The notes under the pieces: model-generated
Databases searched by the model: none
Told to the model about the DNA's origin: nothing
Seen by the model: the letters and a program-made list of their open reading frames with translations, nothing else
Assembly (NCBI GenBank): GCA_023382335.1
Contig: JAMCPM010000011.1
Location: 65,229-129,228, forward strand
Direction of reading: 5' to 3'
Length of the DNA: 64,000 nt
Source of the DNA: Actinomycetota bacterium
GTDB taxonomy: Bacteria; Actinomycetota; Thermoleophilia; BMS3ABIN01
Part shown: positions 37,598-56,699 of the stretch, in pieces
Position numbering within the stretch: position 1 is the first letter of the stretch
How the letters are laid out: each line of letters starts with the position of its first letter
Position numbers and translations under genes: made by a program

Positions 37598-37632
37598 TTC
37601 ATGCAGCAACAATTCGATTACAATAGGAAACA

Positions 37633-38412
37633 ATGGCCACACTGAACAACAAAGCAGTAGTCCCTACGAAGTTTGAGCTAGACTCGAAGATCCAGTTCCG
37701 CTGTCATAAGGAAATCGCCTGTTTCACGCGCTGTTGCCGCAATATCGATATCCTGCTGACGCCCTACGACGTCATCCGCATGAAGCACCGCCTGAAACTG
37801 TCAAGCACCGAGGTCCTGGCGCGTTATACCCGCTTTGAAGTCGATGACAAGACCACGCATCCGCTGCTGTTCCTGCGCATGAACGAGGATGAGGACCGCA
37901 ACTGTCCCTTCGTCAAGCCCAAAGAAGGATGCACCATCTACAGCGACCGGCCGGCTGCCTGCCGTTACTATCCCGTCGGTCAGGCGACTCACCGGCGCTA
38001 TGCCGACGACGACAAGACTCCGATCCACGATGAATGGTATGTCGTCGTCAAGGAAGATCACTGCCAGGGCTTTCAGGAGAAGAAGGCCTGGACCATCGCC
38101 GAGTGGCGCGATGACCAGGAGGCGGCGCTCTACGACGACATGAACCGTGAGTGGAAGAACATCATGATGAAGCAGGACATCCCCAAGGACAAGATCGACG
38201 AGAAGCGTCAGCAGATGTTCTACATGGCCAGTTACGACATGGACAGCTTCAGGCGCTTTGTCTTTGAAAGCAGGTTCCTGGAAGTGGCCGAGATCGATCC
38301 TGATTCACTGGAGAAGATGAAAGCCGATGACGTCGAGCTGATGAAGTTCGGCTTCGATTACCTCAAGTATCTCTTCGGCATCAGCAAGACCATCCGCGTC
38401 AAGCCCGAGTAG
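37633..38412 (+). CDS. YkgJ/UPF0153-family putative Fe/Zn-chelating cysteine-cluster protein
   Basis: CHKEIACFTRCCRNIDI CxxCxxCC signature. Confidence 0.6.
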   Translation: MATLNNKAVVPTKFELDSKIQFRCHKEIACFTRCCRNIDILLTPYDVIRMKHRLKLSSTEVLARYTRFEVDDKTTHPLLFLRMNEDEDRNCPFVKPKEGCTIYSDRPAACRYYPVGQATHRRYADDDKTPIHDEWYVVVKEDHCQGFQEKKAWTIAEWRDDQEAALYDDMNREWKNIMMKQDIPKDKIDEKRQQMFYMASYDMDSFRRFVFESRFLEVAEIDPDSLEKMKADDVELMKFGFDYLKYLFGISKTIRVKPE

Positions 38413-38854
38413 CAACCTTAATTGTCCTGCCGCGGCTGACCGCGGCAACGATCGCCAGTACCGTTATCGCCGTCACGATCAGCAGTGAAATCACGCACAG
38501 GGGGCATACCGCCCCCAGCACGAAGACTTCGATGTAGGTCAGCGCCAGCGAGATCGCCAGAGCCACCAGCGCCAGCATCACAAGCCCCTGTCCCATTATG
38601 CCCTGCGGTCCCTTGCCCGCGAGCATCAGGCCCGCCACGGCCCCCATGACCATGTATCCTGCCACGCCCAGACCGGCGACGGGGATGCCAGCCACCTCCG
38701 AAAACTGGCTCTGATTCACAGCGGTGCAGCTGACGGTTGCGTTGAAATCGCAGGATGAAGATTCCGCTGTTGAATAATGCCGCTGCAGCGCGTAGCCCGA
38801 ATCGATAATTCCAGCCAGCGTCAGGATGATGATGATAGTGAGGATTGCTTTCAA
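38399..38854 (-). CDS. VKOR (vitamin K epoxide reductase)-family membrane thiol oxidoreductase
   Basis: 4-5 TM helices, Cys pair SSSCDFNATVSC in a loop and CPLC active-site motif. Confidence 0.6.
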   Translation of the reverse strand: MKAILTIIIILTLAGIIDSGYALQRHYSTAESSSCDFNATVSCTAVNQSQFSEVAGIPVAGLGVAGYMVMGAVAGLMLAGKGPQGIMGQGLVMLALVALAISLALTYIEVFVLGAVCPLCVISLLIVTAITVLAIVAAVSRGRTIKVATRA

Positions 38855-39091: not shown

Positions 39092-39094
39092 ATA

Positions 39095-39800: not shown

Positions 39801-39877
39801 GCGCCCGTAGCTCAGTTGGATAGAGTGCTTGACTACGAATCAAGAGGTCACAGGTTCGAATCCTGTCGGGCGCACCA
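39801..39877 (+). tRNA. tRNA-Arg (anticodon ACG)
   Basis: GCGCCCG acceptor, anticodon loop CUACGAA, 3' GGGCGCACCA. Confidence 0.9.
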
Positions 39878-39960
39878 CTTTTTTGTTCCGCGGAGAGTTC
39901 CTTCCTGGTAAAAAACATCTCCGTCTCGCTTTATTCCCGCTTTGTGTTAGTCTTGCCTCC

Positions 39961-40410
39961 ATGAGCGATTACGAGCATTTCATGCATATAGCCCTGAGTG
40001 AGGCACGCATGGCCGCAGAGAGCGGCGAGGTGCCTGTAGGAGCGGTCATAGAGCGCGGGGGAGAAGTGATCGCCGCTGCCGGCAACGAGCGCGAGGAGCG
40101 CAGGGATCCTACCGCCCACGCCGAGATCCTCGCCATCCGCGAGGCGGCAAAACAGCTGGGGGGCTGGCGGCTGCCGGGTTGCACCATCTACGTGACCGTC
40201 GAGCCTTGTCCGATGTGCGCCGGAGCCATCTATCAGGCGCGTATCGAGCGGCTGGTTTTTGGAGCCGTCGACGAGAAAGCGGGGGCCGCCGGCACACTCA
40301 TGGATATCACCCGCGATTCCCGTCTCAATCACCAGACCGAAGTCGTCGCCGGAGTCCTGGCCGAAGAGAGCGCCGCCATCCTCCGGGAATTCTTTTCGCG
40401 GCGCCGCTGA
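39961..40410 (+). CDS. tadA: tRNA-specific adenosine deaminase
   Basis: HAEILAIREAA...VTVEPCPMCAGAI CDA zinc-binding motifs; start trimmed to MSDYEH (longer ORF would overlap the tRNA). Confidence 0.85.
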   Translation: MSDYEHFMHIALSEARMAAESGEVPVGAVIERGGEVIAAAGNEREERRDPTAHAEILAIREAAKQLGGWRLPGCTIYVTVEPCPMCAGAIYQARIERLVFGAVDEKAGAAGTLMDITRDSRLNHQTEVVAGVLAEESAAILREFFSRRR

Positions 40411-40458
40411 TGCCGGTTTCACCTTATGCCCTGCATTGGATAAACTATCATCTGCAGC

Positions 40459-41288
<830 letters not shown>

Positions 41289-41323
41289 ACCCGGGGCGAT
41301 TCAAACAGCGTGTTAAGGTGAAG

Positions 41324-41611
41324 ATGTTACGCCAATGGGGTGATTATATCGTAGATGAGGTCATCTATGTAACTTTCGGTGATACGATGTTGGAGTTTAT
41401 CGGAGTTACCAATCCGTCATCCACAAAGCATGATACGTGGGGCGTAGGTTATAGGATGATCGCCCTCGAAGTTGATGATATGGATGCCGCGGTTACTTAC
41501 TTAAAGAGCAAAGGTATTGAACTGACAACCGGTCCGGCAGTATTGGGTACATCAAAGCGTGCTGAAATAGTTGACCCAGATGGCCTACCAATCGAACTGC
41601 GGCAGTGGTAG
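41324..41611 (+). pseudogene. Glyoxalase/VOC-family fragment (C-terminal module only), probably truncated
   Basis: GDTMLEFIGV...YRMIALEVDDMDAAVTYLKSKGIELTTGP...KRAEIVDPDGLPIELRQW; only ~96 aa; low GC. Confidence 0.45.
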
Positions 41612-41670
41612 AAACATAATAGGAATTTTATTCTCGATCGAACAAATTAACAAAAAGGAGGTGAAAAATT

Positions 41671-42039
41671 ATGAATATGACGAATATTTCGGGACCTGAC
41701 TTTATCACATTACTTGTCAGTGATTTGGAAACGTCATACAACTTCTACAAAGAAAAAATCGGTTTGAGTGAATCGTCCGAAAAACAACCTAATGCGCGTG
41801 CTTTCGCTACAAAACCGTGCGGGTTAGCAATAAGGCAGTCTCCTGATAAGAGCAAGATGGATAATCCGAGTCAAGGAATTGTTATTTGGTTGCGCACTTC
41901 TGACGCAACCGTTCTATACAACGATTTGAAGAAACGGGGAGTTCCTATCGTCGAGGAACTCCGGAAGAGTCCTTTCGGCATGACCTTTTCATTTAAGGAT
42001 CCCGATGGGTACATCATGGCCGTGCATGAAGGTGGCTAA
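41671..42039 (+). CDS. Glyoxalase/bleomycin-resistance (VOC) family protein
   Basis: 122 aa, AGGAGG RBS, markedly AT-richer than flanks. Confidence 0.6.
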   Translation: MNMTNISGPDFITLLVSDLETSYNFYKEKIGLSESSEKQPNARAFATKPCGLAIRQSPDKSKMDNPSQGIVIWLRTSDATVLYNDLKKRGVPIVEELRKSPFGMTFSFKDPDGYIMAVHEGG

Positions 42040-42317
42040 CACAAATAAAGTATTGCGGTCTAACAAGTCACTCCGGTCAATCCTCTGTCCGTCCGTTCGC
42101 CAGTTTGCGGCTCCGGTCGAGTAGCTGAATGGAAATAGAATTTACCGCCAAAGAAAAACTTGAAATCGTCCTTTCCGCTCCGGTTCAAGGCGAGGCGGGC
42201 GGAAGGGGGGTGTGGGGGGAATTCCGCCCCGCCGAGCCCAGAGAGTTCCGTTCGGATATTTTCAAACAGACACCGCCATTGACCCCCCGGACCGGATGTC
42301 CTTCATGGAGTAAACAC

Positions 42318-43103
42318 ATGCAACGTGTCACCTTCACCAACTCCAGAAATCTCACCCTGGTCGGCAACCTCTATCCGTCGACAGCGAAATCAATCGTCAT
42401 CCTGTCCCATGGTTTTACGTCGGATAAATCCTCCCGCGGCCGGCACGAGCTCCTGGCCGGCTCCCTGGTGCGCTCCGGCTTTTCGGCCTTGGCCTTCGAC
42501 TTCAGCGGCAGCGGCGAGAGCGATGACGACCTGCTGACCATCGAGAACCAGGTGGATGACCTGAACTCGGCGGTTGGTTTTGCCGAGTCTGAAGGCTATC
42601 AGGACATCGCCCTTCAGGGGCACAGCCTTGGCGGCCTCATCAGCCTGATGTCGTACTCACCACTTATCATTACCATGGTCCTTACCGGCCCGGTCACAGG
42701 ACCCGTCAATTATTTATGGGAAGAATATTACTCGCGCGACCGTCTCGACGAGCTGAGAAAAAACGGACGGCTCGAGGTCGAAGTGGAATCGCGGTGGCGG
42801 CAGCAGGTTACCGTCGGCAGCCTGCTGCTCGAGACCTTCGCCACGATCGACCAGGAGCGCCTGCTGACGGGCGTGAAATGCCCGCTGCTCATCATCCACG
42901 GCAACAGCAAGGAAGACGAAGAAGAAAGGATGTTACTGGCAACGACCAGGCGGGGAATAAAATACCTGCCTGAAGGCTCGCGGCTGGATGTCATTGAGGA
43001 GGCCGGCCACAGCTTCACCGGCCATATGGATGAAGTTGTCGACAAGACCGTGGACTGGTACACAAATCATTTACCTGACGGAGGAAACCATGAACGTGAG
43101 TGA
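42318..43103 (+). CDS. Alpha/beta-fold hydrolase
   Basis: GHSLGG nucleophile elbow, HGNSKEDEE and GHSF motifs. Confidence 0.7.
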   Translation: MQRVTFTNSRNLTLVGNLYPSTAKSIVILSHGFTSDKSSRGRHELLAGSLVRSGFSALAFDFSGSGESDDDLLTIENQVDDLNSAVGFAESEGYQDIALQGHSLGGLISLMSYSPLIITMVLTGPVTGPVNYLWEEYYSRDRLDELRKNGRLEVEVESRWRQQVTVGSLLLETFATIDQERLLTGVKCPLLIIHGNSKEDEEERMLLATTRRGIKYLPEGSRLDVIEEAGHSFTGHMDEVVDKTVDWYTNHLPDGGNHERE

Positions 43104-43755
43104 GGCGCTTGCATCCCGCTACACCTGCCGGGATTATCAGGCCAAACCGGTCGCCAGGGAAACCCTGAACGCGATCTTCGCGGCTGCCACGCGGGCGCCG
43201 TCATGGGCCAACACGCAGCCTTGGGAGATATATGTAGCCGGAGGAGACACGCTTGAGGGCTTGCGCCAGGCTTGTCTGCAGAACTTCCTGAACGGGGTTT
43301 CCGGAAGCTCCGAGCTTGCCCGTCCGGACAAGTGGCCGGCCGCCATGCAGGAGCGCATGCACAGCCTGGGAGCGGCGCGATTTGAATCCCTGGGGATCGA
43401 GCGCGGCGATGAAGAGGCAAGGAAGGCGATGTCAGAGAACAACAACCGCTTTTTCGGAGCTCCGGCGGTCGCCTATATCTGCATGGACCGCTCGCTGACA
43501 CCCTGGTCTATCTTCGACCTGGGCATGTTGGCCCAGAGCATCATGTTGGCGGCGGAAGAACTGGGCGTGGCGACCTCGATAGCCTACAACCTGGTGATCT
43601 ATCCCGATCTGATCAGAGAGGCGCTGGAAATCCCGGCAGGCCAGATCATCCTCATCGGCATCGCTCTCGGCTACGCCAAGACGGAATCGGTGCAAAACCG
43701 CTTTCGCAGTCCGCGCAGGCCGCTTGAGGAAGCGGTCAGCTTCCACGGTTTCTAA
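43090..43755 (+). CDS. Nitroreductase-family FMN oxidoreductase
   Basis: MNVSEALASRYTCRDYQAKPV...RAPSWANTQPW nitroreductase N-terminal signature. Confidence 0.75.
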   Translation: MNVSEALASRYTCRDYQAKPVARETLNAIFAAATRAPSWANTQPWEIYVAGGDTLEGLRQACLQNFLNGVSGSSELARPDKWPAAMQERMHSLGAARFESLGIERGDEEARKAMSENNNRFFGAPAVAYICMDRSLTPWSIFDLGMLAQSIMLAAEELGVATSIAYNLVIYPDLIREALEIPAGQIILIGIALGYAKTESVQNRFRSPRRPLEEAVSFHGF

Positions 43756-43799
43756 AGTAGCTTTCTGGCGAGCCGCTCTCCGCCCCAACGGTTCGGAGC

Positions 43800-45536
43800 T
43801 TACGTTTGCTCCGCCGCCGGCCGGGCGCCGCGCGCGTCATCATCGGTCGTGCCCCGCTCGGCTTCCGCCACGACCAGCTCGGGCTCGTGCCCGGGATCGA
43901 TATTGGCAAGTTCCGCTTCCAGTTCCATGCCGCTCTCGGTGAGAGCCGGCGCATTGGAACGCCTCAGCCTGATCTCGGGTATCAGGCAGGTCACAAGAAA
44001 TGCTAGCACCATGATGACCGTGCTGGCTATGAATAAGGTGGCGATCGAGGAGCTGAAAGCAACTTTCAGGGTATCGATGAAGTGGTCGAAAGAGCCCAGG
44101 ATCTGGGACTGTGAATCTGCCGGCGCCTGCGCGACTATGGCTGCCTTGATCTGTGCCTGTCCCTCAGGCGTAAGGAAAGTCTGCAGAGTGTTGGAATCGA
44201 TCTTGCTCACGGCATCCGGATTCAATTTGCTCATTGCCTGAACGAAGTTGTCGCTCGACAGGCCGCTCAGCTTGTCTGCCAGCTGGCTGTTCAGCATTCC
44301 GCCGAGGATAGCGCTGCCGACCGTGCTGCCAATGCTTCTGAAGAGCTGTGTGGACGCTGTCACCTGGCCGAGTTGGGAATGGCCGAAGGCGCTTTGGACA
44401 GCGATCATGAAGATAGGCATGGTCATGCCCAGTCCCAGGCCGGTGACAACCATGTTCAGCCGCAATGTGCCGCTGGTTGTGTCAACGCCCATTCGCGACA
44501 TCATGAACAGTCCGACACAGCTGATCGCCATGCCGGTGATTCCTATGATCTTGTATTTGCCTGTACGCGAGACGATCTGGCCGGTGATGACCGACGCTAC
44601 GATCAGGCCGCCCATCAGCGGCGTCAGGATCAGCCCCGAATTCGTCGCCGAGACGCCGACCACACCCTGCGCGAACAGGGGGATGAAAATTATGGCGCCG
44701 AACAACCCCATCGACGAAAGGAAGGTCGCCGCCACCGAAACGCTAAAAACGCGGTTGCGGAAAAGCGACAGCGGCAGGATCGGTTCCTTGGCCTTCATCT
44801 CGGCAACGCCAAAGGCGATAAGCGAAGCCGCCGAAAGCGTGAACAGGCCGATGATGACATCGGAGGTCCACGCATATTCGCTGCCGCCCCAGACGAAGGC
44901 GAGGAGCATCGGTATCAGGCCTGCGGCCAGCAAAAAAGCCCCGGCATAGTCCAGCGCCCGCTGCTTGACGTCAGGCCTGATCCTGGGGAAGCCCAGGCCT
45001 ATGACCGCCAGGGCGAACAGGCCCAGCGGGATATTGATGAAAAAGATCCAGCGCCAGGTGCTGTTGTCGGTGATCCAGCCGCCCATCAGAGGGCCGGCGA
45101 CGCTGGCGAGGCCGAAGGCGCCGCCGATCAGGCCCTGCCATTTGCCACGCTCTGCCGGCGGGAATATGTCTCCTACGGCGGCGACCGAAAGAACCATCAG
45201 CGCGCCGCCGCCGATGCCCTGGAAGCTGCGGAAGGCGATCAGCTGCCCCATGCTCTGGGCAAAACCGCACATCACCGAGCCGGCCAGGAAGATCGTGATC
45301 GCCGCCAGGAAGAAGCTGCGGCGTCCGTAGATGTCGGAGAGTTTGCCGTAGATGGGAACGGTGATGGCGGAGACCAGCATGTAAGCGGTAAAGACCCAGC
45401 TGAAGTGGTCGAGGCCGTTGAGGTCCTGAACTATTTTTGGCATCGCGGTGGCTACGATGGTCGAATCCAGCGCCGCCAATAACATGGCCAGCATCACGCC
45501 GGCCATTACCATGAACTTGCTATTTCTGCTCAACAT
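43800..45536 (-). CDS. MFS transporter, 14-TM DHA2 (EmrB/QacA) drug:H+ antiporter family
   Basis: 578 aa, 14 TM helices, MFS motifs [10 protein letters not shown] and [13 protein letters not shown]. Confidence 0.85.
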
Positions 45537-45543
45537 CTTCTGA

Positions 45544-45789
45544 TCAGGCCTCCGTTTCAGCTATAATCTTACGAATGGAATCGAGCCGGTCGGAAAGGTG
45601 CGTGGCGAACTGTTCCAGCTCGGAAAGTTTGACCATTGCCACCATGTTGTCGCCGAAGCCGAACGTCAGCAGCTTGTCGCCCTTCTCGATGCGCATGCTC
45701 TGGCGCGCCTCGGCCGGGATCACGACCTGGCCTTTTTCCCCTACGGTGGTAGTGCCATAGAAGTGCTCTTCGGCAAGTTTCTTCTTCAT
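45544..45789 (-). CDS. AbrB/MazE/SpoVT-family DNA-binding protein
   Basis: [27 protein letters not shown] swapped-hairpin motif; no adjacent toxin gene. Confidence 0.65.
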
Positions 45790-45929
45790 TCCCGCGTCTT
45801 TCGTAGATTCCTACATGTAGGAAAAGTATAACAATAATTTCTCACCACAGGCAACGCCTTCAGTTGCCGCGGCAGACGCCGTTTGTCTATTGACCCCCTG
45901 ATGTTGGATAATTTCATGTCTGGAGCGGG

Positions 45930-46025
<96 letters not shown>

Positions 46026-46064
46026 TTGGAACATTGGCTTTCCATTGCTTCCAAATGTTTACAC

Positions 46065-46141
<77 letters not shown>

Positions 46142-46860: not shown

Positions 46861-47301
46861 ATGGAGATAAGCAGACAGGCGGATTACGCCATCAGGGCGA
46901 TACTCGACCTTTCCAGGTTCCCGGCCGGGGAGCTCGCCCAGACTCGCGACATTGCCAGGCGCCAGGGGATTCCTGAAAAATATCTGCCGACCATCGTGCG
47001 CACGCTCGCCCGCTCGGGGCTCCTCAGGACCTTGAGAGGCAGTCACGGAGGCATCACGCTCGCGCGGCCTCCGGCGCAGATAACATTGCGCGATGTCGTC
47101 GAAGCCATTGACGGCCCGGTGCTGCTTAACCGGTGCCTGCTGCGCCCGGGGGAGTGCACGGTGGGGGCAAGCGGTTACTGTTCACTGCATTTCTTCTGGG
47201 AGCGGATGGTGGAAGAGATCGAGCAGAAGCTGGAGGAGATAAACTTCGGGGATCTTCTCGACGGCAAAGCAGTAGATTTCGGTCTGCCGGATAACGGCTG
47301 A
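46861..47301 (+). CDS. Rrf2-family transcriptional regulator (three-Cys, IscR/NsrR-like)
   Basis: MEISRQADYAIRAILDLS wHTH; Cys cluster CLLRPGECTVGASGYCSLH. Confidence 0.8.
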   Translation: MEISRQADYAIRAILDLSRFPAGELAQTRDIARRQGIPEKYLPTIVRTLARSGLLRTLRGSHGGITLARPPAQITLRDVVEAIDGPVLLNRCLLRPGECTVGASGYCSLHFFWERMVEEIEQKLEEINFGDLLDGKAVDFGLPDNG

Positions 47302-47349
47302 CCGGTAAGGCGCCCGCCTCCCGACGGCGCCCCGGCCAGAGCTCTCAGG

Positions 47350-47802
47350 CTATCTCGCCAGGAGATTATCCAGGTTCTGTTGCAGCGTCGGTTGATCCTG
47401 GAAAGAATCGGTGACCTGGACCCGGTTTCCGTTCTTGTCTATGAACAGCATTCCCGGGATATGCGTGATGCCGTAGCGCTGGTACTCGCAATAACCCTCA
47501 GGGGTCGCCAGATCGTAGCGGAGAAATTCTATTCTGTCCTGATACGCTTTCTGTAGCTCATCAACGATGGGCTTCTCCTTCTGGCACACCGGTCAGGTGT
47601 CGCGGAAGAAGTAGACGTGTTGAGGCTTGCCGCTGGGTGGGGGGATGATGCTGGGTGCGTCTGCCTTGCACTGTGGTGCGGTAGCGGCCGCCGTGGTCGT
47701 TGAATCACCGCCGCATCCGGCCAAAAGCACTGCAAGCAGCAGGGCTGAAGCAAAACCGAGAATCAAAAGGATATAATTTTTGCGCTTCATAATGCCCAAC
47801 AT
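47350..47802 (-). CDS. Candidate selenoprotein: thioredoxin-fold lipoprotein with in-frame TGA (plus coords 47593-47595) giving a U-P-V-C redox motif
   Basis: Two minus-strand ORFs in the same frame separated only by TGA; upstream part has lipoprotein signal MKRKNYILLILGFASALLLAVLLAGC and beta-strand HVYFF; downstream part completes the thioredoxin fold. Confidence 0.5.
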
Positions 47803-47910
47803 TCTAGCTCAATCCTTTCTTAAAAGGAAAGCAATGTATGGAAATGGCCGGGTGCATGTTTCCCTTTTAAACAGCACCTATGCCCCGAAGGCCATTGTTA
47901 TAATCATTTA

Positions 47911-48975
47911 ATGAAGATCCTTGCTGCCGACATCGGCCACGGTACCGCTGACTTACTGGTTTTTGACTCCGATCTGGAGATCGAGAACTGCGCCAAAATG
48001 GTCGTGCCCTCAAGGACGCAGATGGTCGCCCGCCGGATCACCGAAGCCACGGGCAGGGGCCTTCCTGTTTCAATGAGCGGGCCCGTGATGGGTGGCGGTC
48101 CCTGCGGGGCGGCGCTGAAAAAACATCTGGAAGCAGGGCTGCTGTTCTTCGCCGACCCTACGGCAGCCTTGACATTTCACGACGACATCAGCAAGGTTGA
48201 GGGCTGGGGCGTGACCGTCATCGACGACCCCGAAGCAGCCTTGCCGGCCGGCGGCATCATCATTAAAAGCGGAGACCTGGACCCGGGGTCGCTGTCGCGT
48301 GCATTCAGCGAGCTCGGGATCGGCTTCCGATTCGACGGCGTCGCCATCGCCGTGCAGGACCATGGTTATTCACCTGGGGCCAGCAACCGCAGGCGCCGTT
48401 TTTCGCTGTGGCGCGGTCTTCTGGCCGATAATGCCGATCTTGCGAGTCTGGCCTTCCCCGCGGAATCTATTCCTCAAAGCTATACGCGCATGAAGTCGGC
48501 GGCTTCGATCTTCGCCGGTTTCGAGCGGGTGCTGCTGATGGACACCGGTCCGGCGGCGCTGCTCGGCGCTACCCTGGCGGCGCAACCGGGCGCCGGGGCG
48601 CGCCTGGTCGCGAACATCGGCAACGGGCATTCGCTGGCGGCGATCGTCACCGGCGGCTGCATCGACGGACTGTTCGAACACCATACGGGCATGCTCGAAC
48701 GCGAGAGCTTCGATTCATACATGAGGCGCTTCCTGGAGGGAGGACTCAGCGATGATGAAGTCTTCGACGGGGGCGGCCATGGCTGCATCCCGCCTTCACG
48801 CGCTTACTCTCTGGAAGAGCTGGGACCGCTGCTGGTTACGGGGCCGCGGCGCGAGATCGTCGCCGGCGGCAGTCTGCAGCTGGAGATGGCTGCGCCCTTC
48901 GGGGATATGATGTTGACGGGATGCTTCGGTCTGGTCGCGGCCTGGCGGCTGGCTAGCCGAGATCGCGCTTTCTGA
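47911..48975 (+). CDS. DUF1786-like ASKHA-fold (actin/sugar-kinase-like ATPase) hypothetical protein
   Basis: MKILAADIGHGTADLLVF N-terminal phosphate-1-like motif; 354 aa. Confidence 0.45.
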   Translation: MKILAADIGHGTADLLVFDSDLEIENCAKMVVPSRTQMVARRITEATGRGLPVSMSGPVMGGGPCGAALKKHLEAGLLFFADPTAALTFHDDISKVEGWGVTVIDDPEAALPAGGIIIKSGDLDPGSLSRAFSELGIGFRFDGVAIAVQDHGYSPGASNRRRRFSLWRGLLADNADLASLAFPAESIPQSYTRMKSAASIFAGFERVLLMDTGPAALLGATLAAQPGAGARLVANIGNGHSLAAIVTGGCIDGLFEHHTGMLERESFDSYMRRFLEGGLSDDEVFDGGGHGCIPPSRAYSLEELGPLLVTGPRREIVAGGSLQLEMAAPFGDMMLTGCFGLVAAWRLASRDRAF

Positions 48976-49780
48976 AAATCCAGGAAGCCAGAAGGATGGC
49001 TCCGCCGATATACAAGGCTTCATAGCCGAACGACCATCCCCGGGGAGCGAACGTCGCCGTTTCGGTGCCGGCCAGCTCGGCTGCCCGTGATTGCCCCATG
49101 AGCACCATGCTCGCCAGATCGCTCACCTCGCTTACCGGCAACAGCATCCTCAATATGTTCGCCAGCGACACGACGAAGACGTTGTCGGAAGTCTGGCCGA
49201 TGGCGTTGATGACGCGCAGATTTGAGGTAAAGATAAAAAGCAGGAAGACAAAGATGGCGTTGGCGATCACCGGCAGAAAGGTCGAGAACAGCAGTGTCAG
49301 GCTGACCATGGTCACCACGTTGAGGGTAACCAGGCCGATCGCGGGCAGGAAGCGCCAGATGAAAACCCCCGAGCCCATCGAGACCGTCGCCCACAGGACC
49401 AGACCCATGATCAACACATAGCCCGCCATCAGCAGCGCGTGGCCCAGCCATTTTCCGAAGATGACCTGCCAGCGGTGCACGGGCTTGGTGATCACGGCCA
49501 GGATGGTTCCCTTGTCGACCTCGGTGAAAATGGCTCCCAGGGTCGTGAAGATGGCCATGCTCATGCCGATGAAATTGAGTCCGCCCATGGCAAAGCTGAG
49601 GAAGTCGCGGCCGGCGGCGGTCTTCATCTCCATGTCGCCGACGACGGCGCTGCCGCCGGACGATGAGCTGAGCACCGGCACCATCGCCAGGTAGAGGAAA
49701 CTTATTACCAGCCCGACGATCATGGTCCTGCTGCGGATCGTCTGCCGCAGGGTGAAGGAGGCCAGCGTCCAGGTCTTCAC
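48953..49780 (-). CDS. ABC-2-type transporter permease
   Basis: 275 aa, 6 TM helices; overlaps the ATPase gene by 4 nt. Confidence 0.7.
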   Translation of the reverse strand: MKTWTLASFTLRQTIRSRTMIVGLVISFLYLAMVPVLSSSSGGSAVVGDMEMKTAAGRDFLSFAMGGLNFIGMSMAIFTTLGAIFTEVDKGTILAVITKPVHRWQVIFGKWLGHALLMAGYVLIMGLVLWATVSMGSGVFIWRFLPAIGLVTLNVVTMVSLTLLFSTFLPVIANAIFVFLLFIFTSNLRVINAIGQTSDNVFVVSLANILRMLLPVSEVSDLASMVLMGQSRAAELAGTETATFAPRGWSFGYEALYIGGAILLASWIFRKRDLG

Positions 49781-50709
49781 GCGCCGCTCTCCTCGATCGA
49801 CTGCACGAAGACCTCTTCCAGCTGCTGGCTGCGCGGGGTGAATTCCCGCAGGACGGCGCCGCTGTCCATGATCATTCTTGCCAGCAGCGGCACCTGCTCT
49901 TCATCCTCGAGAGTGACGGTCATGTCACCGTTGTTGGTCTCGATGTTGGTGGCCATCCGCCGTATCTTCTCAAGGGTCTCTTCCGGCAGTCCCTCGACGC
50001 GGATGTCAACGCAATGGGTCGTCTGGATCAGCGACTGTATGTCGCCGACCCGGATGAGTTTACCCTTGTTGAGGATGCCTATCTGGGAACAGGTCATCTC
50101 GACTTCGGACAGCAGATGCGAATTGAGAAAGACGGTGGTGCCCCCGTCGCGAAGGCTCAGGATCAGATCGCGGACGTCCCGCCGGCCCAGTGGGTCGAGC
50201 GCCGACGTCGGCTCGTCGAGAAACAGCAGTTCCGGCTTGTTGATGATCGCCTGGCCGATGCCGATCCGCTGCAACATTCCTTTGGAGAAAGTGCGTATGC
50301 GCGACCTGGCCGCTTCCTTCAGGCCCACCAGTTCGAGGACTTCCTCGATGCGGCGCTTGCGATCGGCTGCGGGCATGCCGTACAGGCGGGCGTGAAAATC
50401 GAGGAATTCCTCGGCGCGAAGAAAGTCATGGAACTGAAACAGCTCGGGCAGATAGCCGATTTTTTCCCTGGCGGCGATGTCGCCGATGGGGCTGCCCAGC
50501 AGACTGGCCCGCCCCGAGGAGGGGAAGATGATCTGCATCAGCATCTGCACAGTGGTGGTCTTGCCGGCGCCATTGGGCCCCAGAAAACCAAACACTTCAC
50601 CCGGGCCTACGCTCAGTTCGAGACTGTCGACGGCTTTAACTTCCTCGTCTCCAAACCCGTAGACCTTCGTGAGCCCTTCGATCTCGATGGCAGCAGACAT
50701 CGGCCTCAC
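49777..50709 (-). CDS. ABC transporter ATP-binding protein
   Basis: Walker A GPNGAGKTT, signature LSGGMQQR-like (FSKGMLQRIGIGQA), Walker B LLFLDEPTSALD. Confidence 0.85.
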   Translation of the reverse strand: MRPMSAAIEIEGLTKVYGFGDEEVKAVDSLELSVGPGEVFGFLGPNGAGKTTTVQMLMQIIFPSSGRASLLGSPIGDIAAREKIGYLPELFQFHDFLRAEEFLDFHARLYGMPAADRKRRIEEVLELVGLKEAARSRIRTFSKGMLQRIGIGQAIINKPELLFLDEPTSALDPLGRRDVRDLILSLRDGGTTVFLNSHLLSEVEMTCSQIGILNKGKLIRVGDIQSLIQTTHCVDIRVEGLPEETLEKIRRMATNIETNNGDMTVTLEDEEQVPLLARMIMDSGAVLREFTPRSQQLEEVFVQSIEESGA

Positions 50710-51249: not shown

Positions 51250-51498
51250 ATGAGCGAAGGAATCGATGTAAAGGCTGATTCTGTCCTCGATGTGCAGGGC
51301 CTTTGTTGCCCGATGCCGGTCGTCAAGGCCAAGAAGGCAATGGACGCCATCGAAGTGGGACAGGTGCTCGAGATCATCGGCACCGACCCCGGTTCGAAAG
51401 GTGACATGCCGGCTTGGGCCAATCGCGCCGGACACGAGTTTCTAGGCTCGACCGAGGAAGGAGAAGTGTTCCATTTTTGGGTTAAGAAAGGAAAGTGA
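51250..51498 (+). CDS. tusA: TusA-like sulfurtransferase
   Basis: GLCCPMPVVKAKKAM CPxP active-site motif; 82 aa. Confidence 0.75.
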   Translation: MSEGIDVKADSVLDVQGLCCPMPVVKAKKAMDAIEVGQVLEIIGTDPGSKGDMPAWANRAGHEFLGSTEEGEVFHFWVKKGK

Positions 51499-51506
51499 AT
51501 TTCTAA

Positions 51507-51974
51507 ATGGCAGACCGTTTAGCCATCATCGCATCGAAGGGCACGCTCGATATGGCCTATCCGCCTCTGATTCTGGCGAGCACGGCCGCGGCCATGGACA
51601 TGGAATGCGCGATATTCTTCACCTTCTACGGTCTGGATATCGTCAATAAGAAAAAGTACGCGAACCTCAAGGTCGCGCCCGTAGGCAATCCTGCCATGCC
51701 GATGCCGGTTCCCAATATCGTCGGCATGATCCCCGGAATGACCGCGGTGGCAAGCAAGATGATGAAAGACATGATGAAGAAGGCCAAACAACCGACCATC
51801 CCCGAGATGGTCAAACTTTGCGCCGAGACAGGCGTAAAATTGTGGCCTTGTGAACTGACATTGCAGGTTATGAGCATCAAACCTGAAGACCTCATTCCAG
51901 AGGTCGACAAGACCTGCGGTGCGGCGGCATTTCTGGATTATGCCGCAGAAGCCAACATCAGTCTGTTCATCTAA
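51507..51974 (+). CDS. DsrE2/DsrE-family (peroxiredoxin-like fold) putative sulfur-relay protein
   Basis: DsrE/DsrF-like architecture; 9 nt downstream of tusA. Confidence 0.55.
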   Translation: MADRLAIIASKGTLDMAYPPLILASTAAAMDMECAIFFTFYGLDIVNKKKYANLKVAPVGNPAMPMPVPNIVGMIPGMTAVASKMMKDMMKKAKQPTIPEMVKLCAETGVKLWPCELTLQVMSIKPEDLIPEVDKTCGAAAFLDYAAEANISLFI

Positions 51975-52093: not shown

Positions 52094-55000
52094 TTGGTTC
52101 GACCTGGGTGGCTGCATTTGGCGTCAGACAAATCGAAATGGCCGAGTTCCACGATCCTTAAAGTATGTCTGGCTGCGTCCTGGCTTTTGATCATGACAGG
52201 CGCCCTTTATCTCGCCGACTCCCCTCAAGCGTCAGGCGATACATCGCTCCCGGTCCCGGCGGACATCCCTCGGCCGGAAAACGTCGGCGCCGGCTTCTTC
52301 GGCATCAACGCCGAGAGGCCGCATGAGGATGTCTACAACAGCGACATCCTTGCGGCTCCCGATCAGTACGGTTCCGATTACACCATTGAAGCCACGGTCA
52401 GGATCAACGAGACTTCGACCGCCAATGGCACAGCCGGCCTGATCGTCCGCTACGGCGGCGATGACGAGAACTTCTACTACTTTGGCATCTATCCCAATGA
52501 AGACAAGTGGAAGCTGTACAAACCCGGCTTTGCCGATCCGGTGGAGGGCTACTGCAGCGTCGGCCTTGCCCCGCAAGCCTTCGATCTCAAGGTCAGCGTA
52601 ACCGGCAGCAACATCATCGCCTTCATCAATGGCGCGCCCGTCGGCTCGATGGAAGACACATTGCTGCCAGGTGGTGGCGGCGGCCTGCGCCTGCGCAGCT
52701 CTGACACCGTATTCACGGGAGTCAAGATCGACGGCGTCGACCAGAACCTCGCCGCCTGGAGCGCCAGCCATGCCGTTGCCTGGACGGCGGCTTCAGGCAG
52801 CACCGTACACGGGAACGTCCTACTCGATCCCGCGCTGCTGGCAAGCCCGGAGCTGTCGCCCGAGCTGGATGAGCGCTTCCACATGATGTCGGCGATGGGC
52901 GCCAGCCAGGTCCGGTTCATGCTCTCCTGGGCGGAGATCCAGCCCCAGAGCTCCAGTCAGCCGTATGTCTGGCGCTACGCCGACGCCTTCGCCATCGCCG
53001 CCCACAGGTATAATCTCGAGATCGCACCGGTCGCGCTTTTTGCCCCCAGGTGGGCGGTGCGGCCCGAATACCGCGACAGTGTTTTCTATCACGCCTATCC
53101 TCCAGTTGATAACAGTGGTAGTTTTGATACTTCGCGTTTCGCGCAGTTTGCCGCCGCCGGCGCCGGCCGATACCGGCGCGGCGGGCAACTCGCTACTCAG
53201 ATGGGTTGGGGCGCGGAAACCTGCGGTCAGGCGGCCAGCTTCGAGATCGGAGCAGAATTCAACCTGGGAATCGTCTACGAGAAGAGGAGCGGCCGGTGGC
53301 AGGCTACCGGCGCGGGATGGCTCGGCAGCCTCACCCAGTTCGTTGACCTGTTGAAGGCCGGCCATGATGCGGTAAAAGGGGCATGCCCCGATTGCATCGT
53401 CCTTAATGGCGCTCCCGCGGATGACGTCATCACCAATTATGACATCAACGACGACCCCGGCCGCCACGACAGCTATGTCCCTTATCTGGATTCAGACCGG
53501 CTGATGAATCCCGACGGCACTCCCGCCTGGAGACAGACCGTCTGGCAGGGCGTCAACGATCTCTACAGCGAGATCGAGCGCCGCGCCGCGCCGGATAATC
53601 TTCCGGCAAGATATTTCGACGTCCTCAATGTGCACACGTTCATGTGGAAAGGCTACACCGCCGACTGGCCGCCCACGGCTGACGGATATGTCGACTGCTC
53701 CTACTATTCCGATGACTGCTGGAAGCTATGGTATAGCGAGAGGCTGGGGCGGGTGGTGCAGACAATGCGCGACCATAACGATTCCAGGCAGATCTGGTTG
53801 AGCGAGACCGGATTTCCCAGCGCCAGGCCGCCCAACGATAATGAGGGTTTCCTTGGTTTCCTATCTGAGGAAAAGCAGGCGCGGGCGCTGGAATCCGCGT
53901 TCGCCGAGACGGCGAAATTCCCCGAGGTCAAAAAAGTCTTCTGGTGGCAGGGCTACGATTGCCATTATTCCGGGAATCTGGGACTGGTGAGAGCCGACCT
54001 TTCAGCAAAGCCATCATACGCAGCCTATGCCTGGATGGCGGGCAAGAACCAGGCCTTCAGATCGCGCTTTTCGTTTTCCTGGTATGACAACATCGAGGCC
54101 GCCAACTGGGTGCTCATGGCTAATCCCGCATCCGCTACAGGCACGGCGAAGTTCGATCTTGCCGTCGGCGGGCGGCAGCTGGCTGTGCCGTCGCTTACCG
54201 GCGGTCTTGCCGGGGAGGTCCCGCCCGGGCAAGTCCTGTACGCGCGATATCCCGGCCTCATCGGCGGACCGGTTCATGCAGGTTACGAGGCAGGCTCGGG
54301 GGCCATCGCCAGCGAGAGGACGCTCTGGGCGGGCAACTCCCTCGAGGAGGTGGTGGGCACGGAGAGTTCAAGGCTCTCTGACCATTTCTTCTGGACCTGG
54401 TACGACGAACGATCGGCGGGTTATAAAGACTGGATCCTGATCGCCAATCCAGCCTCGACCCCGGTTTACTACAGCGTCAGGGTAGCCGGCGACGGCGGCG
54501 CCACCGGCCGGATCGCACCGGGCGAGATCGTCACGCAGCGCTTTCCCGGCATCATGGGAGGGCCGGTCGAGGTCCAGGCCTGGGCCGACGGCATCGGCGG
54601 CGATCTGCCGGCTGAAGTCATGGCCTCACAGCGAGTGCTGTCCAATGGGGACAAGGCCTTCAACGAGGTGCCGGGCATACCCGCCGCCGAGCTTGGCAGT
54701 GATTACTTGTGGACCTGGTATGACATGCAGAGCACCGGCGCCAGGGACTGGCTGCTGATCGCCAATCCCGCCGGAGCTGCGCCCATCTATTACGAGATAA
54801 GCATCGGCGGCGCTCCGGTCGCAAGTGGCGGCCCCATCTATTCCGGGCAGAGCGTATCGCCGGCGTTCCCCGGAACCATGGCGGGGCCGGTCGAGGTCAA
54901 GACCTTTGCCGACCCCGGGCATCAGGCCGCCGCCAGTTCAATCGCCACCCAACGGGTCATCTGGGATCCCTCATTCGAGGAAGTCCCTGGCTTCCCCAAG

Positions 55001-56611: not shown

Positions 56612-56640
56612 CTCTTCTCCCTGTTCGTGCCGTTCCCATA

Positions 56641-56680: not shown

Positions 56681-56699
56681 CAGACTCACGTCCAGCCTT

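What the first reader, a model, noticed from the sequence alone, without database searches (positions are those of the whole stretch)
47350..47802. Candidate selenoprotein: thioredoxin-fold lipoprotein with a UxxC motif encoded by an in-frame TGA
On the minus strand, ORFs 47593..47802 and 47350..47589 share a frame and are separated only by TGA (plus 47593-47595). The upstream piece alone is a lipoprotein signal peptide plus one beta-strand (HVYFF). The downstream piece alone would start at GTG as MCQKEK and lack the first strand of the thioredoxin fold. Reading TGA as Sec gives a coherent ~150-aa lipoprotein with ...HVYFFRDT-U-PVC-QKEKPIVDEL..., placing Sec exactly where thioredoxin-like proteins have the first Cys of CxxC. 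By eye I found only a short hairpin (CCCAUC-GUU-GAUG) about 25-35 nt downstream, which is not a convincing SECIS.
Basis: partly seen in the sequence, partly recalled or inferred. Interest (0 to 1): 0.7.

Follow-up and report, generated by a model that had tools for sequence, protein, structure and literature searches.

The report
Unannotated selenocysteine thioredoxin lipoprotein gene
The in-frame TGA is almost certainly read as selenocysteine in a small membrane-anchored thioredoxin that public databases currently split into two 'hypothetical proteins'; this is a real but fairly ordinary addition to the many known thioredoxin-type selenoproteins.

Summary
On the minus strand, 47350..47802 is one reading frame interrupted only by TGA at 47593-47595, giving lipoprotein signal, linker, then a thioredoxin fold with U-P-V-C.

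The selenoprotein reading is strongly supported:
- TGA is identical in 5 independent assemblies and kept at this column in all 32 distinct relatives examined (about 30-98% identical), with purifying selection on both sides.
- Relatives with Cys at this column exist (P0008, CPSC).
- TGA is an ordinary stop elsewhere in the window (20 of 44 long ORFs).
Its codons are frozen only in TGA forms, the loop base is free, G31/U32 are invariant, it lies 27 nt from the UGA, and distant members show compensatory changes (pair 28:36 is A-U, G-C or C-G, never broken).

Not shown: selA/B/C/D could not be searched (only about 300 kb held, none found), and the core hairpin alone (-5.9 kcal/mol) misses the -7.5 kcal/mol criterion.

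Likely function: an extracytoplasmic thiol/selenol-disulfide oxidoreductase, direction unknown. NCBI annotates the two halves as separate hypothetical proteins. Novelty: a new member of a known kind.

The parts
47350..47802 (-). Complete coding sequence of the seleno-thioredoxin lipoprotein precursor (150 aa from ATG 47802, or 146 aa from the conserved ATG at 47790; stop TAG 47350-47352)
   Evidence: frame and translation; orthologues conserved across the whole length; dN/dS about 0.07-0.1 upstream of the TGA and far below 1 downstream
47713..47802 (-). Signal peptide with lipobox L-L-A-G|C; the lipid-modified Cys30 is 47713-47715
   Evidence: Read directly from the sequence. [LVIF][ATS][GA]C lipoboxes are present in the orthologues (LAGC, VTGC, LSGC, FAGC, VAGC, ITGC, SAC). 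No dedicated lipoprotein predictor was run.
47593..47595 (-). In-frame TGA, the predicted selenocysteine codon (residue 70)
   Evidence: conserved in 32 of 32 distinct family sequences; Cys codon in homologues
47584..47595 (-). Redox motif U-P-V-C (TGA CCG GTG TGC)
   Evidence: It aligns to CGPC of thioredoxins. In the P0008 model the equivalent C107-x-x-C110 sits at the N-terminus of helix 1.
47555..47573 (-). SECIS hairpin AGC-C-CAUC-[GUU]-GAUG-A-GCU. Pairs are 23:41, 24:40, 25:39, (26x38 C-A mismatch), 27:37, 28:36, 29:35, 30:34. The loop G31 U32 U33 is 47563-47565.
   Evidence: alifold finds it. It is the local MFE structure in 25 of 25 TGA forms but not in Cys forms. Codons +7..+12 are frozen only in TGA forms. 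Covariation is shown.
47368..47619 (-). Thioredoxin-fold domain (Pfam PF00085 match, residues 62-145), including the cis-Pro loop H-I-P-G (Pro116 = 47455-47457)
   Evidence: structure model of the Cys homologue and Foldseek hits to classical thioredoxins
47668..47670 (-). Conserved extra cysteine Cys45 in the segment preceding strand 1
   Evidence: Present in all seven full-length members aligned, and in most of the lipoprotein-clade translations
47488..47490 (-). Invariant extra cysteine Cys105 (motif EGYCEY, helix 2), a possible disulfide partner of Cys45
   Evidence: Invariant in all 16 sequences of alignment A4. The pairing with Cys45 is inference only.
48953..50709 (-). ABC ATPase (49777-50709) and ABC-2 permease (48953-49780), upstream on the same strand. 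In most orthologous loci they directly precede the seleno-Trx gene; here DUF1786 (47911-48975, + strand) is inserted between them.
   Evidence: Association only; co-transcription is not shown.
46861..47301 (+). Convergent Rrf2-family regulator, a conserved neighbour in the main clade
   Evidence: A functional link is not shown.
38399..38854 (-). Stand-alone VKOR homologue (no fused Trx domain), a candidate quinone-linked redox partner. It is 8.5 kb away here and 2.4 kb away in L006.
   Evidence: The partner role is hypothesis only.

Best explanation
47350..47802 (minus strand) is a single gene for a selenoprotein. A Sec-type signal peptide with a lipobox sends the precursor across the cytoplasmic membrane, where Cys30 is lipidated. 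A Ser/Thr/Ala-rich linker then tethers a classical thioredoxin-fold domain to the outer face of the membrane. The domain's active site is U70-P-V-C73, with selenocysteine in the position of the nucleophilic first Cys of CxxC. During translation, UGA70 is recoded by SelB carrying Sec-tRNA(Sec). SelB is recruited by a minimal 19-nt hairpin that starts 19 nt after the UGA (stem 23-30/34-41 with one C-A mismatch; apical G31-U32-N33). The hairpin is built from the codons of the thioredoxin helix-1 motif K-P-I-V-D-E-L: CCC AUC pairs with GAU GAG, and the Val codon GUN supplies the loop GU. The mature protein acts as an extracytoplasmic thiol/selenol-disulfide oxidoreductase that cycles between a selenolate/thiol and a selenenylsulfide. 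Steps shown here: a single conserved frame, Sec/Cys homology, the RNA element and its constraint, and the thioredoxin fold. Steps inferred: SelB dependence, lipidation, and the redox role. Direction (oxidant versus reductant) and partners (the nearby VKOR, the upstream ABC-2 exporter, or cytochrome-c maturation) are open.
For: (1) The TGA is identical in 5 independent assemblies. It is retained in orthologues at 88/67/66% identity, in 14 further close metagenomic members plus 4 more distant ones, in stubs at 39-54% identity, and in distant members at about 30-40% identity. That is 32 of 32 distinct sequences.
(2) Purifying selection acts in this frame on both sides. Upstream dN/dS is about 0.07-0.10 with dS of 1.0-1.3; downstream synonymous sites are saturated with dN of 0.15-0.35.
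(3) Cys homologues exist: P0008 reads ...PSGKPQFVYFYDES-C-PSC-QQLQPIVDEL, and further CxxC relatives appear. A Sec/Cys-pair scan of all held sequence singles out only this family.
(4) TGA is a normal stop for 20 of 44 long ORFs in the window, so there is no code reassignment.
(5) SECIS evidence. Identical synonymous codons number 11 of 12 in codons +1..+16 against 9 of 42 further on (p=1.7e-5). For the same peptide KPIVDEL, TGA forms use CCC 25/25, GAG 25/25, GAT 18/18 and ATC 24/25, whereas Cys forms use 1/9, 2/9, 4/8 and 5/9 (p from 5e-7 to 0.012). The loop third base varies freely (T10, C9, G6). The hairpin is the local MFE structure in 25 of 25 TGA forms. G31 and U32 are invariant in 32 of 32. 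On the 32-sequence alignment 83.6% of cells pair, against 19-34% for slid controls; 3 pairs show double changes; pair 28:36 is AU27/GC4/CG1 with none broken; 0 of 500 shuffles reach the covariation score. The loop, stem length and 27-nt spacing meet the published bSECIS model (PMC13188914).
(6) Fold. Pfam Thioredoxin passes its threshold. The AlphaFold model of the Cys homologue has pLDDT above 94 over a b-a-b-a-b-b-a domain. Its best Foldseek hits are classical thioredoxins and the periplasmic TrxP.
(7) Indirect support for Sec use in the lineage: a tRNA-Sec-like gene of the selC* type lies 2.2 kb from the orthologue in L006. The isolate genomes carrying selC* all had selABCD (PMC5389517).
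Against: No selA, selB or selD, and no tRNA-Sec with a UCA anticodon, was found. However, only the 64-kb window and about 240 kb of related loci could be searched, so this is absence of data rather than of genes. The core hairpin alone folds at only -5.9 kcal/mol (-3.1 to -6.4 across members), short of the -7.5 kcal/mol criterion of the bSECIS model, and no conserved lower stem exists. The single-sequence MFE fold of the region prefers a different, non-conserved hairpin, with an unremarkable z-score of -1.34. No Rfam family matches the region. No other selenoprotein gene was seen in the window. There is no experimental evidence of selenium incorporation. The function rests on fold and motif only, and the neighbours differ between clades.
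Confidence: 0.87

Rival explanations
1. UGA70 is recoded, but to cysteine (or another standard residue) rather than selenocysteine. This could happen through a tRNA-Sec-like tRNA-Cys with a UCA anticodon delivered by a SelB paralogue, as described for selC*/SelB*/CysRS* systems, using the same hairpin.
For: A selC*-type tRNA (tRNA-Sec fold, U73 discriminator) exists in a related genome, L006. PMC5389517 shows that selC* tRNA-Cys(UCA) can translate UGA as Cys. The hairpin and the conservation would look the same under this reading.
Against: The L006 tRNA has the anticodon GCA, which reads UGC/UGU and not UGA. It is absent from the window and from every other locus. No selB* or cysS* gene is next to it; VKOR is. 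Keeping a costly UGA plus hairpin across 32 diverged genes only to insert Cys, while Cys-codon homologues exist, is hard to rationalise.
Confidence: 0.05
2. The TGA is a genuine stop. The locus holds a decaying pseudogene or two separate small genes (a 69-aa lipopeptide and a 79-aa truncated thioredoxin), as currently annotated in NCBI.
For: Public annotation calls two hypothetical proteins (MCL5882573.1 and MCL5882572.1, and others). TGA is the commonest stop in the window. Sec machinery is not demonstrated.
Against: The same TGA is kept in 32 of 32 distinct relatives down to about 30% identity, with no frameshift or second stop, and with dN/dS far below 1 on both sides in one frame. The downstream piece lacks strand 1 and the first active-site residue. 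The start codons of the called stubs differ between members (GTG at +2, ATG at +6/+7 or +10), which is what truncation artefacts look like. Nucleotide-level constraint and covariation lie just 3' of the TGA.
Confidence: 0.03
3. The frozen block after the TGA is not a SECIS but some other constraint on the thioredoxin helix-1 codons (codon bias, an sRNA target, or a translational pause site), and UGA read-through happens by another route.
For: The hairpin is small and, taken alone, below the energy cut-off of the bSECIS model. Its peptide, KPIVDEL, is also conserved in Cys forms. No SelB is in hand.
Against: The constraint is specific to TGA forms and is absent from Cys forms that encode the identical peptide. 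The only free base is the predicted loop base. Distant members change stem bases in a compensatory way and keep GU at +31/+32. Position and loop match the bSECIS model.
Confidence: 0.04

Closest known systems
Selenoprotein thioredoxin (Trx, PF00085, UxxC), e.g. Treponema denticola Trx, as listed in the 2026 inventory of prokaryotic selenoproteins (PMC13188914)
   Same: Classical thioredoxin fold. Sec replaces the first, nucleophilic Cys of CxxC. UGA is followed by a coding-region SECIS. This protein passes the PF00085 threshold.
   Different: This protein is an exported lipoprotein with a linker rather than a roughly 105-aa cytosolic protein (the cytosolic nature of the T. denticola protein is from my own knowledge). 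Its motif is RDT-U-P-[VA]-C-Q rather than W-U-G-P-C. It has two extra conserved cysteines (Cys45, Cys105). It lacks the N-terminal strand/helix of long thioredoxins. It comes from Actinomycetota-labelled MAGs. I could not obtain the T. denticola sequence for a direct comparison.
Predicted selenoprotein family 'thiol:disulfide interchange protein' (PF13098 Thioredoxin_2, UxxC) and related exported Trx-like selenoproteins (DsbG-like, thiol-disulfide isomerase-like, redoxin family) in the same inventory
   Same: Exported or membrane-anchored Trx-fold proteins with UxxC. The distant TGA-containing relatives found here (L042-L047) carry precomputed PF13098 hits and share the hairpin architecture.
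   Different: The window protein scores 22.3 bits on PF13098, below the gathering score of 27. It reaches no NCBIfam cut-off for any curated Trx-like (seleno)protein model.
Bacteroides fragilis TrxP, a periplasmic thioredoxin (PDB 3hxs/3hyp)
   Same: Among the top structural matches of the Cys-homologue model (ranks 5, 9, 11), and also found by sequence. It is a classical Trx fold working outside the cytoplasm.
   Different: TrxP has CxxC and no selenocysteine. Sequence identity is only about 26-30%. Its physiological role is not established as the same.
SaoT, the thioredoxin-like (seleno)protein of the SAO ABC-transport system (NF040730; Haft and Gwadz, bioRxiv 10.1101/2022.07.06.499078)
   Same: A small Trx-like protein with UxxC forms, genetically associated with an ABC transporter, and truncated in databases at the Sec codon.
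   Different: It scores 19.5 bits against a cut-off of 65, so it is not a member. SaoT is about 85 aa without a lipoprotein signal and belongs to a nine-gene system that is absent here. The ABC system here is a generic DrrA-type ATPase plus an ABC-2 permease.
Consensus bacterial SECIS (bSECISearch model) and the E. coli fdhF SECIS
   Same: A hairpin in the coding region just 3' of the UGA. The apical loop starts with G followed by U. The spacing is 27 nt (allowed range 16-37). The upper stem has at least 4 bp. An unpaired position interrupts the stem (criteria from PMC13188914; the fdhF comparison is from my own knowledge).
   Different: It is very short (7 pairs plus one C-A mismatch, 3-5 nt loop), at -5.9 kcal/mol alone, with no conserved lower stem. 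Its sequence, and not just its shape, is nearly invariant across proteins as little as about 35% identical.
VKOR-thioredoxin systems (bacterial VKOR homologues fused to, or encoded next to, a Trx-like or DsbA-like partner)
   Same: A stand-alone VKOR gene lies in conserved synteny with this exported Trx-like gene (window, L001, L006, L016). Knowledge of the VKOR/Trx partnership is from my own memory of the literature and was not checked here.
   Different: The two genes are 2.4-8.5 kb apart and separated by tRNA and other genes, so they are not an operon. No selenoprotein partner of VKOR is known to me. The link is untested.

Membership tests
Bacterial selenoprotein gene (UGA decoded as Sec) | An in-frame UGA conserved among orthologues, with the coding frame conserved on both sides | tested here: met
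   32 of 32 distinct sequences keep TGA. dN/dS is about 0.07-0.1 upstream and far below 1 downstream.
Bacterial selenoprotein gene (UGA decoded as Sec) | Homologues carrying Cys at the position of the UGA | tested here: met
   P0008 (CPSC) aligns Cys to the TGA column within the conserved PSGKPQxVYFY...PIVDEL context. Nine distinct Cys forms appear.
Bacterial selenoprotein gene (UGA decoded as Sec) | [quoted passage not shown] | tested here: met
   The loop is G31 U32 N33 (or C-GUG-A / G-GUC-G), with G31 and U32 invariant. The stem has 7 pairs with one mismatch. Criteria are from PMC13188914.
Bacterial selenoprotein gene (UGA decoded as Sec) | bSECIS: 16-37 nt between the UGA and the apical loop | tested here: met
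   27 nt (positions 4-30) in every member.
Bacterial selenoprotein gene (UGA decoded as Sec) | bSECIS: minimum free energy of -7.5 kcal/mol or lower | tested here: not met
   The core hairpin alone is -5.9 kcal/mol in the window (range -3.1 to -6.4). The 4-sequence consensus over 69 nt gives -7.78, but this includes a non-conserved 5' helix.
Bacterial selenoprotein gene (UGA decoded as Sec) | selA, selB, selC (tRNA-Sec UCA) and selD in the same genome | not testable with these tools
   None is present in the window or in about 240 kb of related loci. The rest of the MAGs could not be fetched.
Bacterial selenoprotein gene (UGA decoded as Sec) | Selenium demonstrated in the polypeptide (75Se labelling or mass spectrometry) | not testable with these tools
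   This needs an experiment.
Thioredoxin family (Pfam PF00085) | Score at or above the Pfam gathering threshold | tested here: met
   32.9 bits against 23.5, residues 62-145, with U replaced by C.
Thioredoxin family (Pfam PF00085) | Thioredoxin fold with the CxxC at the N-terminus of helix 1 and a cis-Pro loop | tested here: met
   The model of Cys homologue P0008 has pLDDT above 94 and a b-a-b-a-b-b-a fold, with C107xxC110 before helix 108-123. Top Foldseek hits are thioredoxins, with TM-score to target about 0.8. The H-I-P-G segment aligns to the thioredoxin I-P-x loop. The window protein itself could not be modelled because the tool refuses the U-to-C sequence.
Thioredoxin_2 (PF13098), the Pfam family under which the review lists the 'thiol:disulfide interchange protein' selenoproteins | Score at or above the Pfam gathering threshold | tested here: not met
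   22.3 bits against 27. More distant TGA relatives do carry PF13098 hits.
Curated NCBIfam Trx-like (seleno)protein families (SaoT NF040730, TUGYCR NF053656, PDO_seleno_TRX TIGR02187) | Score at or above the curated cut-off | tested here: not met
   19.5 against 65, 11.7 against 100, and 20.6 against 185.
Bacterial lipoprotein | A positively charged n-region, a hydrophobic h-region, and a lipobox [LVI][ASTVI][GAS]-C | tested here: met
   MKRKNY / ILLILGFASALLLAVL / LAG-C, read from the sequence. Equivalent lipoboxes occur in the orthologues. No dedicated predictor was run and lipidation is not shown.
DsbA-type oxidase | A helical domain inserted into the thioredoxin fold | tested here: not met
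   The domain is about 95 aa with a minimal fold and no insertion. No DsbA structure is among the 50 listed Foldseek hits, nearly all of which are classical thioredoxins.
TlpA/ResA/CcmG-type reductases (Redoxin, AhpC-TSA, Thioredoxin_8) | Score at or above the family thresholds | tested here: not met
   Redoxin 14.5 against 26.6, AhpC-TSA 12.8 against 26, Thioredoxin_8 19.6 against 27, ResA NF002854 22.9 against 170. A similar role is not excluded.

The most novel reading that the evidence does not exclude
This protein and its stand-alone VKOR neighbour form a selenium-based extracytoplasmic disulfide relay in sulfate-reducing Actinomycetota. It would be a quinone-linked DsbA/DsbB analogue whose thioredoxin-like carrier uses a selenenylsulfide. 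Its minimal SECIS also shows how such carriers arise: the universal thioredoxin helix-1 motif P-I-V-D-E is nearly self-complementary at the RNA level, so a few synonymous changes plus a Cys-to-UGA change are enough to convert a thioredoxin into a selenoprotein.
Probability: 0.12. Interest if true: 0.6.

Novelty: new member of a known kind. Interest (0 to 1): 0.4.

Why it matters
It corrects an annotation error that recurs in public databases. This gene and dozens of relatives are stored as pairs of 'hypothetical proteins' or as 71-79 aa stubs. It adds an exported, lipid-anchored seleno-thioredoxin to the selenoproteome of MAGs labelled Actinomycetota or Thermoleophilia that carry a sulfate-reduction gene set. 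It also provides an unusually clean natural example of a minimal bacterial SECIS: 19 nt, overlaid on a conserved protein motif, with a built-in control (Cys forms encoding the same peptide with unconstrained codons) and with compensatory changes. Such cases are useful for improving SECIS models, which the recent literature says still miss a share of real selenoprotein genes. It does not open a new kind of biology: UxxC thioredoxin-fold selenoproteins are the commonest kind known.

Tried and rejected
- The word-index protein search with the full U-to-C protein found nothing at E<=1e-3. The profile version found only 9 stubs.
- The exhaustive HMMER search and the structure tool refuse the U-to-C sequence and any reference spanning the TGA. 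I therefore searched with the 80-aa C-terminal piece and modelled the Cys homologue P0008 instead.
- The 16-sequence alignment A4 was too diverse for the metagenome scan. The 5-sequence A5 worked.
- The single-sequence fold of the 76 nt after the TGA gave a different hairpin (UGAUGAGCU...AGCGUAUCA) with z=-1.34. I rejected it because its 3' arm is not conserved in L006/L007.
- Rfam showed nothing in the gene at gathering or E-value thresholds.
- I looked for a conserved lower stem or pairing that involves the UGA and found none.
- I looked for selA/B/D with E. coli queries by tblastn over 303 kb, and for tRNA-Sec with ARAGORN and Rfam. None was found, apart from the GCA-anticodon selC*-type gene in L006.
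- I scanned the window and all loci for other TGA-interrupted genes. Only this family survives; the other hits are off-frame noise in GC-rich DNA.
- Sigma-70 promoter and intrinsic terminator scans of 47200-48000 found nothing.
- I considered DsbA-like, ResA/TlpA-like and SaoT membership. None meets its threshold.
- I considered genome-wide UGA reassignment and rejected it, because TGA ends 20 of 44 long ORFs.
- I ran no further search on SelA/SelB. The output cannot be filtered by genome, so it would be dominated by unrelated taxa.
Full report
**Observation.**
On the minus strand, 47593..47802 and 47350..47589 are in one frame, separated only by TGA (47593-47595) and a Pro codon. Read through, the product is a 150-aa precursor with these parts:
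- a signal peptide with the lipobox LLAG|C
- a Ser/Thr/Ala-rich linker
- ...PSGKPQHVYFFRDT-U-PVC-QKEKPIVDEL... and the rest of a thioredoxin domain

With U written as C it passes Pfam Thioredoxin (32.9 bits against 23.5). Alignment to solved thioredoxins puts the TGA column on the first Cys of WCGPC. The Met conserved in orthologues is the second ATG (47790), so the true start is probably there.

**Not an error and not a decaying gene.**
The exact 79-aa and 69-aa pieces occur on contigs from four other independent samples. The DNA around the TGA is identical in all five, which fall into two haplotypes about 1.5% apart.

A scan of one genome per species found three orthologues at 88, 67 and 66% identity, in MAGs labelled Actinomycetes or Thermoleophilia. 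All have TGA at the same column.

Against L006/L007, the 20 codons upstream of the TGA have dN/dS of about 0.07-0.10 at dS of 1.0-1.3. The downstream part has saturated synonymous sites with dN of 0.15-0.35. Both halves are therefore translated in this frame. TGA is the commonest ordinary stop in the window (20 of 44 long ORFs), so the code is not reassigned.

**Wider family.**
An exhaustive HMMER search with the C-terminal 80 aa gave 111 hits. Many are 71-79 aa 'proteins' that begin 6-10 residues after the Sec column. P0008 (194 aa) is full-length and reads ...PSGKPQFVYFYDES-C-PSC-QQLQPIVDEL, which makes it a Cys homologue.

Every stub I traced to its contig has a TGA-terminated ORF with a lipoprotein or membrane anchor immediately upstream, in frame.

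A metagenome scan added 27 loci. Fourteen close relatives, three more distant ones (L025, L026, L028) and L031 have TGA; more distant thioredoxins have Cys. In total, 32 distinct sequences have TGA at this column.

A Sec/Cys-pair scan over all the sequence I held singles out this family only. NCBI records the two halves as separate hypothetical proteins (for example MCL5882573.1 and MCL5882572.1).

**The SECIS.**
Comparative data say otherwise.
- **Synonymous codons.** In four orthologues, synonymous codons are identical in 11 of 12 cases in codons +1..+16 but in only 9 of 42 further on (p=1.7e-5).
- **Bounds of the block.** Across 25 distinct TGA forms the frozen block is sharply bounded to codons +7..+12, AAG CCC ATC GTN GAT GAG. 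Only the Val third base varies freely.
- **Control.** Nine Cys-form relatives encode the same peptide, KPIVDEL, and were picked up by a peptide pattern blind to codon choice.

| Codon | TGA forms | Cys forms |
|---|---|---|
| Pro CCC | 25/25 | 1/9 |
| Glu GAG | 25/25 | 2/9 |
| Asp GAT | 18/18 | 4/8 |
| Ile ATC | 24/25 | 5/9 |

These contrasts give p values from 5e-7 to 0.012.

- **Structure.** The block folds as A23-U41, G24-C40, C25-G39, (C26xA38), C27-G37, A28-U36, U29-A35, C30-G34, with loop G31 U32 N33. In window coordinates this is 47555-47573. RNAalifold finds it. It is the local MFE structure in 25 of 25 TGA forms, and the Cys forms do not form it.
- **Covariation.** Close orthologues give none because the stem never varies, but distant members do. 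On the 32-sequence alignment:
  - Pair 28:36 is A-U in 27, G-C in 4 and C-G in 1, and is never broken.
  - Pair 27:37 is C-G, U-A or U-G.
  - Pair 24:40 is G-C, G-U or U-A.
  - The C-A mismatch becomes C-G in six sequences.
  - 83.6% of cells pair, against 19-34% when the partner is slid.
  - 0 of 500 shuffles reach the covariation score.

  The U/C choice at position 36 is a synonymous third base of Asp/Asn, so this covariation is at the RNA level.

**Comparison with the published bSECIS model.**
The criteria are from PMC13188914.

| Criterion | Result |
|---|---|
| Apical loop of 3-9 nt | Met: 3-5 nt |
| G[G\|U] at the start of the loop | Met: G31 and U32 are invariant |
| Upper stem of 4-16 bp | Met: 7 pairs with one mismatch |
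| 16-37 nt from the UGA to the loop | Met: 27 nt |
| MFE of -7.5 kcal/mol or lower | Not met by the core alone (-5.9 kcal/mol); no conserved lower stem |

**What could not be shown.**
No selA, selB, selD or UCA-type tRNA-Sec is present in the window or in the related loci, about 303 kb in all. The rest of the genomes was out of reach.

The only related evidence is indirect. In L006, 2.2 kb from the orthologue, there is a 98-nt gene that matches Rfam tRNA-Sec over the full model (46.6 bits against a gathering score of 47). It has:
- an 8-bp acceptor stem
- a 6-bp anticodon stem
- a long variable arm
- discriminator U73
- anticodon GCA

This fits the published selC* tRNA-Cys class, and the isolate genomes carrying selC* all had selABCD (PMC5389517; PMC7609411). 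With a GCA anticodon it cannot itself read UGA.

**Fold and likely role.**
The AlphaFold model of the Cys homologue has pLDDT above 94 over a minimal b-a-b-a-b-b-a thioredoxin domain, with the CxxC at the start of helix 1. Its best solved neighbours are classical thioredoxins and the periplasmic TrxP of B. fragilis, not DsbA.

Two further cysteines stand out. Cys105 (EGYCEY) is invariant in all 16 sequences aligned, and Cys45 is present in all seven full-length members. They may form a structural disulfide, as expected for an exported protein; this is inference.

I therefore read the protein as a lipid-anchored extracytoplasmic thiol/selenol-disulfide oxidoreductase. The direction of electron flow is open. 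The context gives three hints:
- **ABC exporter.** In the main clade the gene directly follows a DrrA-type ABC ATPase and an ABC-2 permease on the same strand (gap of about 55 nt in L006). A convergent Rrf2 regulator comes after it. In the window a DUF1786 gene is inserted between the permease and this gene.
- **VKOR.** A stand-alone VKOR homologue lies in conserved synteny, 2.4-8.5 kb away.
- **Cytochrome.** In a distant clade, two Sec paralogues flank a CxxCH multihaem cytochrome-like gene.

None of these links is universal.

**Comparison with what is known.**
Thioredoxin-fold UxxC proteins are the commonest kind of bacterial selenoprotein. The 2026 inventory lists Trx (PF00085), a thiol:disulfide interchange protein (PF13098), DsbG-like, DsbA-like, redoxin, SaoT and others.

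The window protein passes PF00085. It misses PF13098 (22.3 against 27) and every curated NCBIfam (seleno)protein model. I could not obtain the reference sequences of the published families or query BSepDB, so I cannot say whether this clade is already catalogued there. In the sequence databases I searched, every member I traced is recorded as separate truncated ORFs, and those that carry a name are called hypothetical proteins.

**Verdict.**
The novelty is a new member of a known kind, and the interest is moderate. The most useful by-product is a compact, well-controlled example of a minimal SECIS carved from the thioredoxin helix-1 codons.

Noticed in passing
L006:12662-12759 (+), between tRNA-Ser(gct) and the VKOR gene (L006 12818-13258): A 98-nt tRNA-Sec-like gene. 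It scores 46.6 bits on Rfam RF01852 (gathering score 47, E=1.3e-7). It has an 8-bp acceptor stem, a 6-bp anticodon stem, a long variable arm and a 5-bp T stem, but anticodon GCA and discriminator U73. This fits the 'selC* tRNA-Cys' class, reported so far from Firmicutes, Thermodesulfobacteria, Nitrospirae and Proteobacteria. Here it sits in a MAG labelled Thermoleophilia, with no selB*/cysS* beside it. It is absent from the window and from all other loci.
   Followed up: partly
window 28559-38412 (+) and 51250-51974 (+): A dissimilatory sulfur module: sulfate adenylyltransferase (28559-29773), AprA (30347-32347), QmoA (32508-33794), QmoB (33797-36145), QmoC (36155-37543), a CxxCxxCC protein (37633-38412), and DsrE2 (51507-51974) with TusA beside it. 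All lie on a contig whose public records are labelled Actinomycetota or Thermoleophilia. This suggests a sulfate-reducing or sulfur-oxidising actinobacterial lineage.
   Followed up: partly
L011:1442-2026 and L011:2154-2594 (+): Tandem paralogues on one contig. The first is a Cys form (P0008, CPSC, with an N-terminal zinc-ribbon-like CxxC...CxxC and a membrane anchor). The second, about 130 nt downstream, is a Sec form (lipoprotein, RDT-U-PGC) with the standard hairpin.
   Followed up: partly
L026:4042-5900 (also L025:1757 and 3549): Two Sec-containing paralogues (SAT-U-PIC and SPA-U-PTC) flank a 386-aa CxxCH-containing protein. That protein is weakly similar to the multihaem cytochrome (seleno)protein ExtKL model (43 bits against a cut-off of 250). 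This hints at a cytochrome-maturation or electron-transfer role in that clade.
   Followed up: no
L045:943-1722 (+): A membrane-anchored rhodanese domain continues in frame through TGA into a thioredoxin domain (…YEFYSDG-U-QYC…). This is a rhodanese-thioredoxin fusion selenoprotein with the same hairpin register.
   Followed up: partly
L042:1-1290 (+): Three consecutive TGA-interrupted redox genes: a peroxiredoxin with T-P-V-U (TGA at about 160-162), then two thioredoxin-like genes (ADW-U-EVC and SPT-U-PFC). This is a small selenoprotein cluster in an unrelated MAG, GCA_040960625.1.
   Followed up: partly
window 56720-56903 (-): A cobalamin riboswitch (Rfam RF00174, 111.9 bits) lies immediately upstream of a ThiC-family gene (55331-56689, -). 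That gene scores almost as well on the B12 lower-ligand ThiC-like BzaB model as on ThiC itself, so it is a likely BzaB-type gene under B12 control.
   Followed up: no
window 38996-46141 (+) and 19229-19320 (+): Four tRNA-Ser genes (tga, gct, cga, gga) and two tRNA-Arg genes (acg, ccg) lie in the window. Their order is conserved next to the seleno-Trx locus in many related contigs. The intervening genes (MFS transporter, nitroreductase, hydrolase, deaminase, MscL) are present in the window but absent from L006, so this tRNA cluster looks like an insertion hotspot.
   Followed up: no
window 52094-55321 (+): A 1075-aa ORF next to DsrE2/TusA has no Pfam or NCBIfam match. It is conserved at the same place in the near-identical strains L001 and L002 and in L005.
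   Followed up: no
window 47911-48975 (+): A DUF1786 gene is inserted between the ABC-2 permease and the seleno-Trx gene, on the opposite strand. This occurs only in the window's closest relatives (L001-L005, L023); other clade members have the permease directly upstream.
   Followed up: partly
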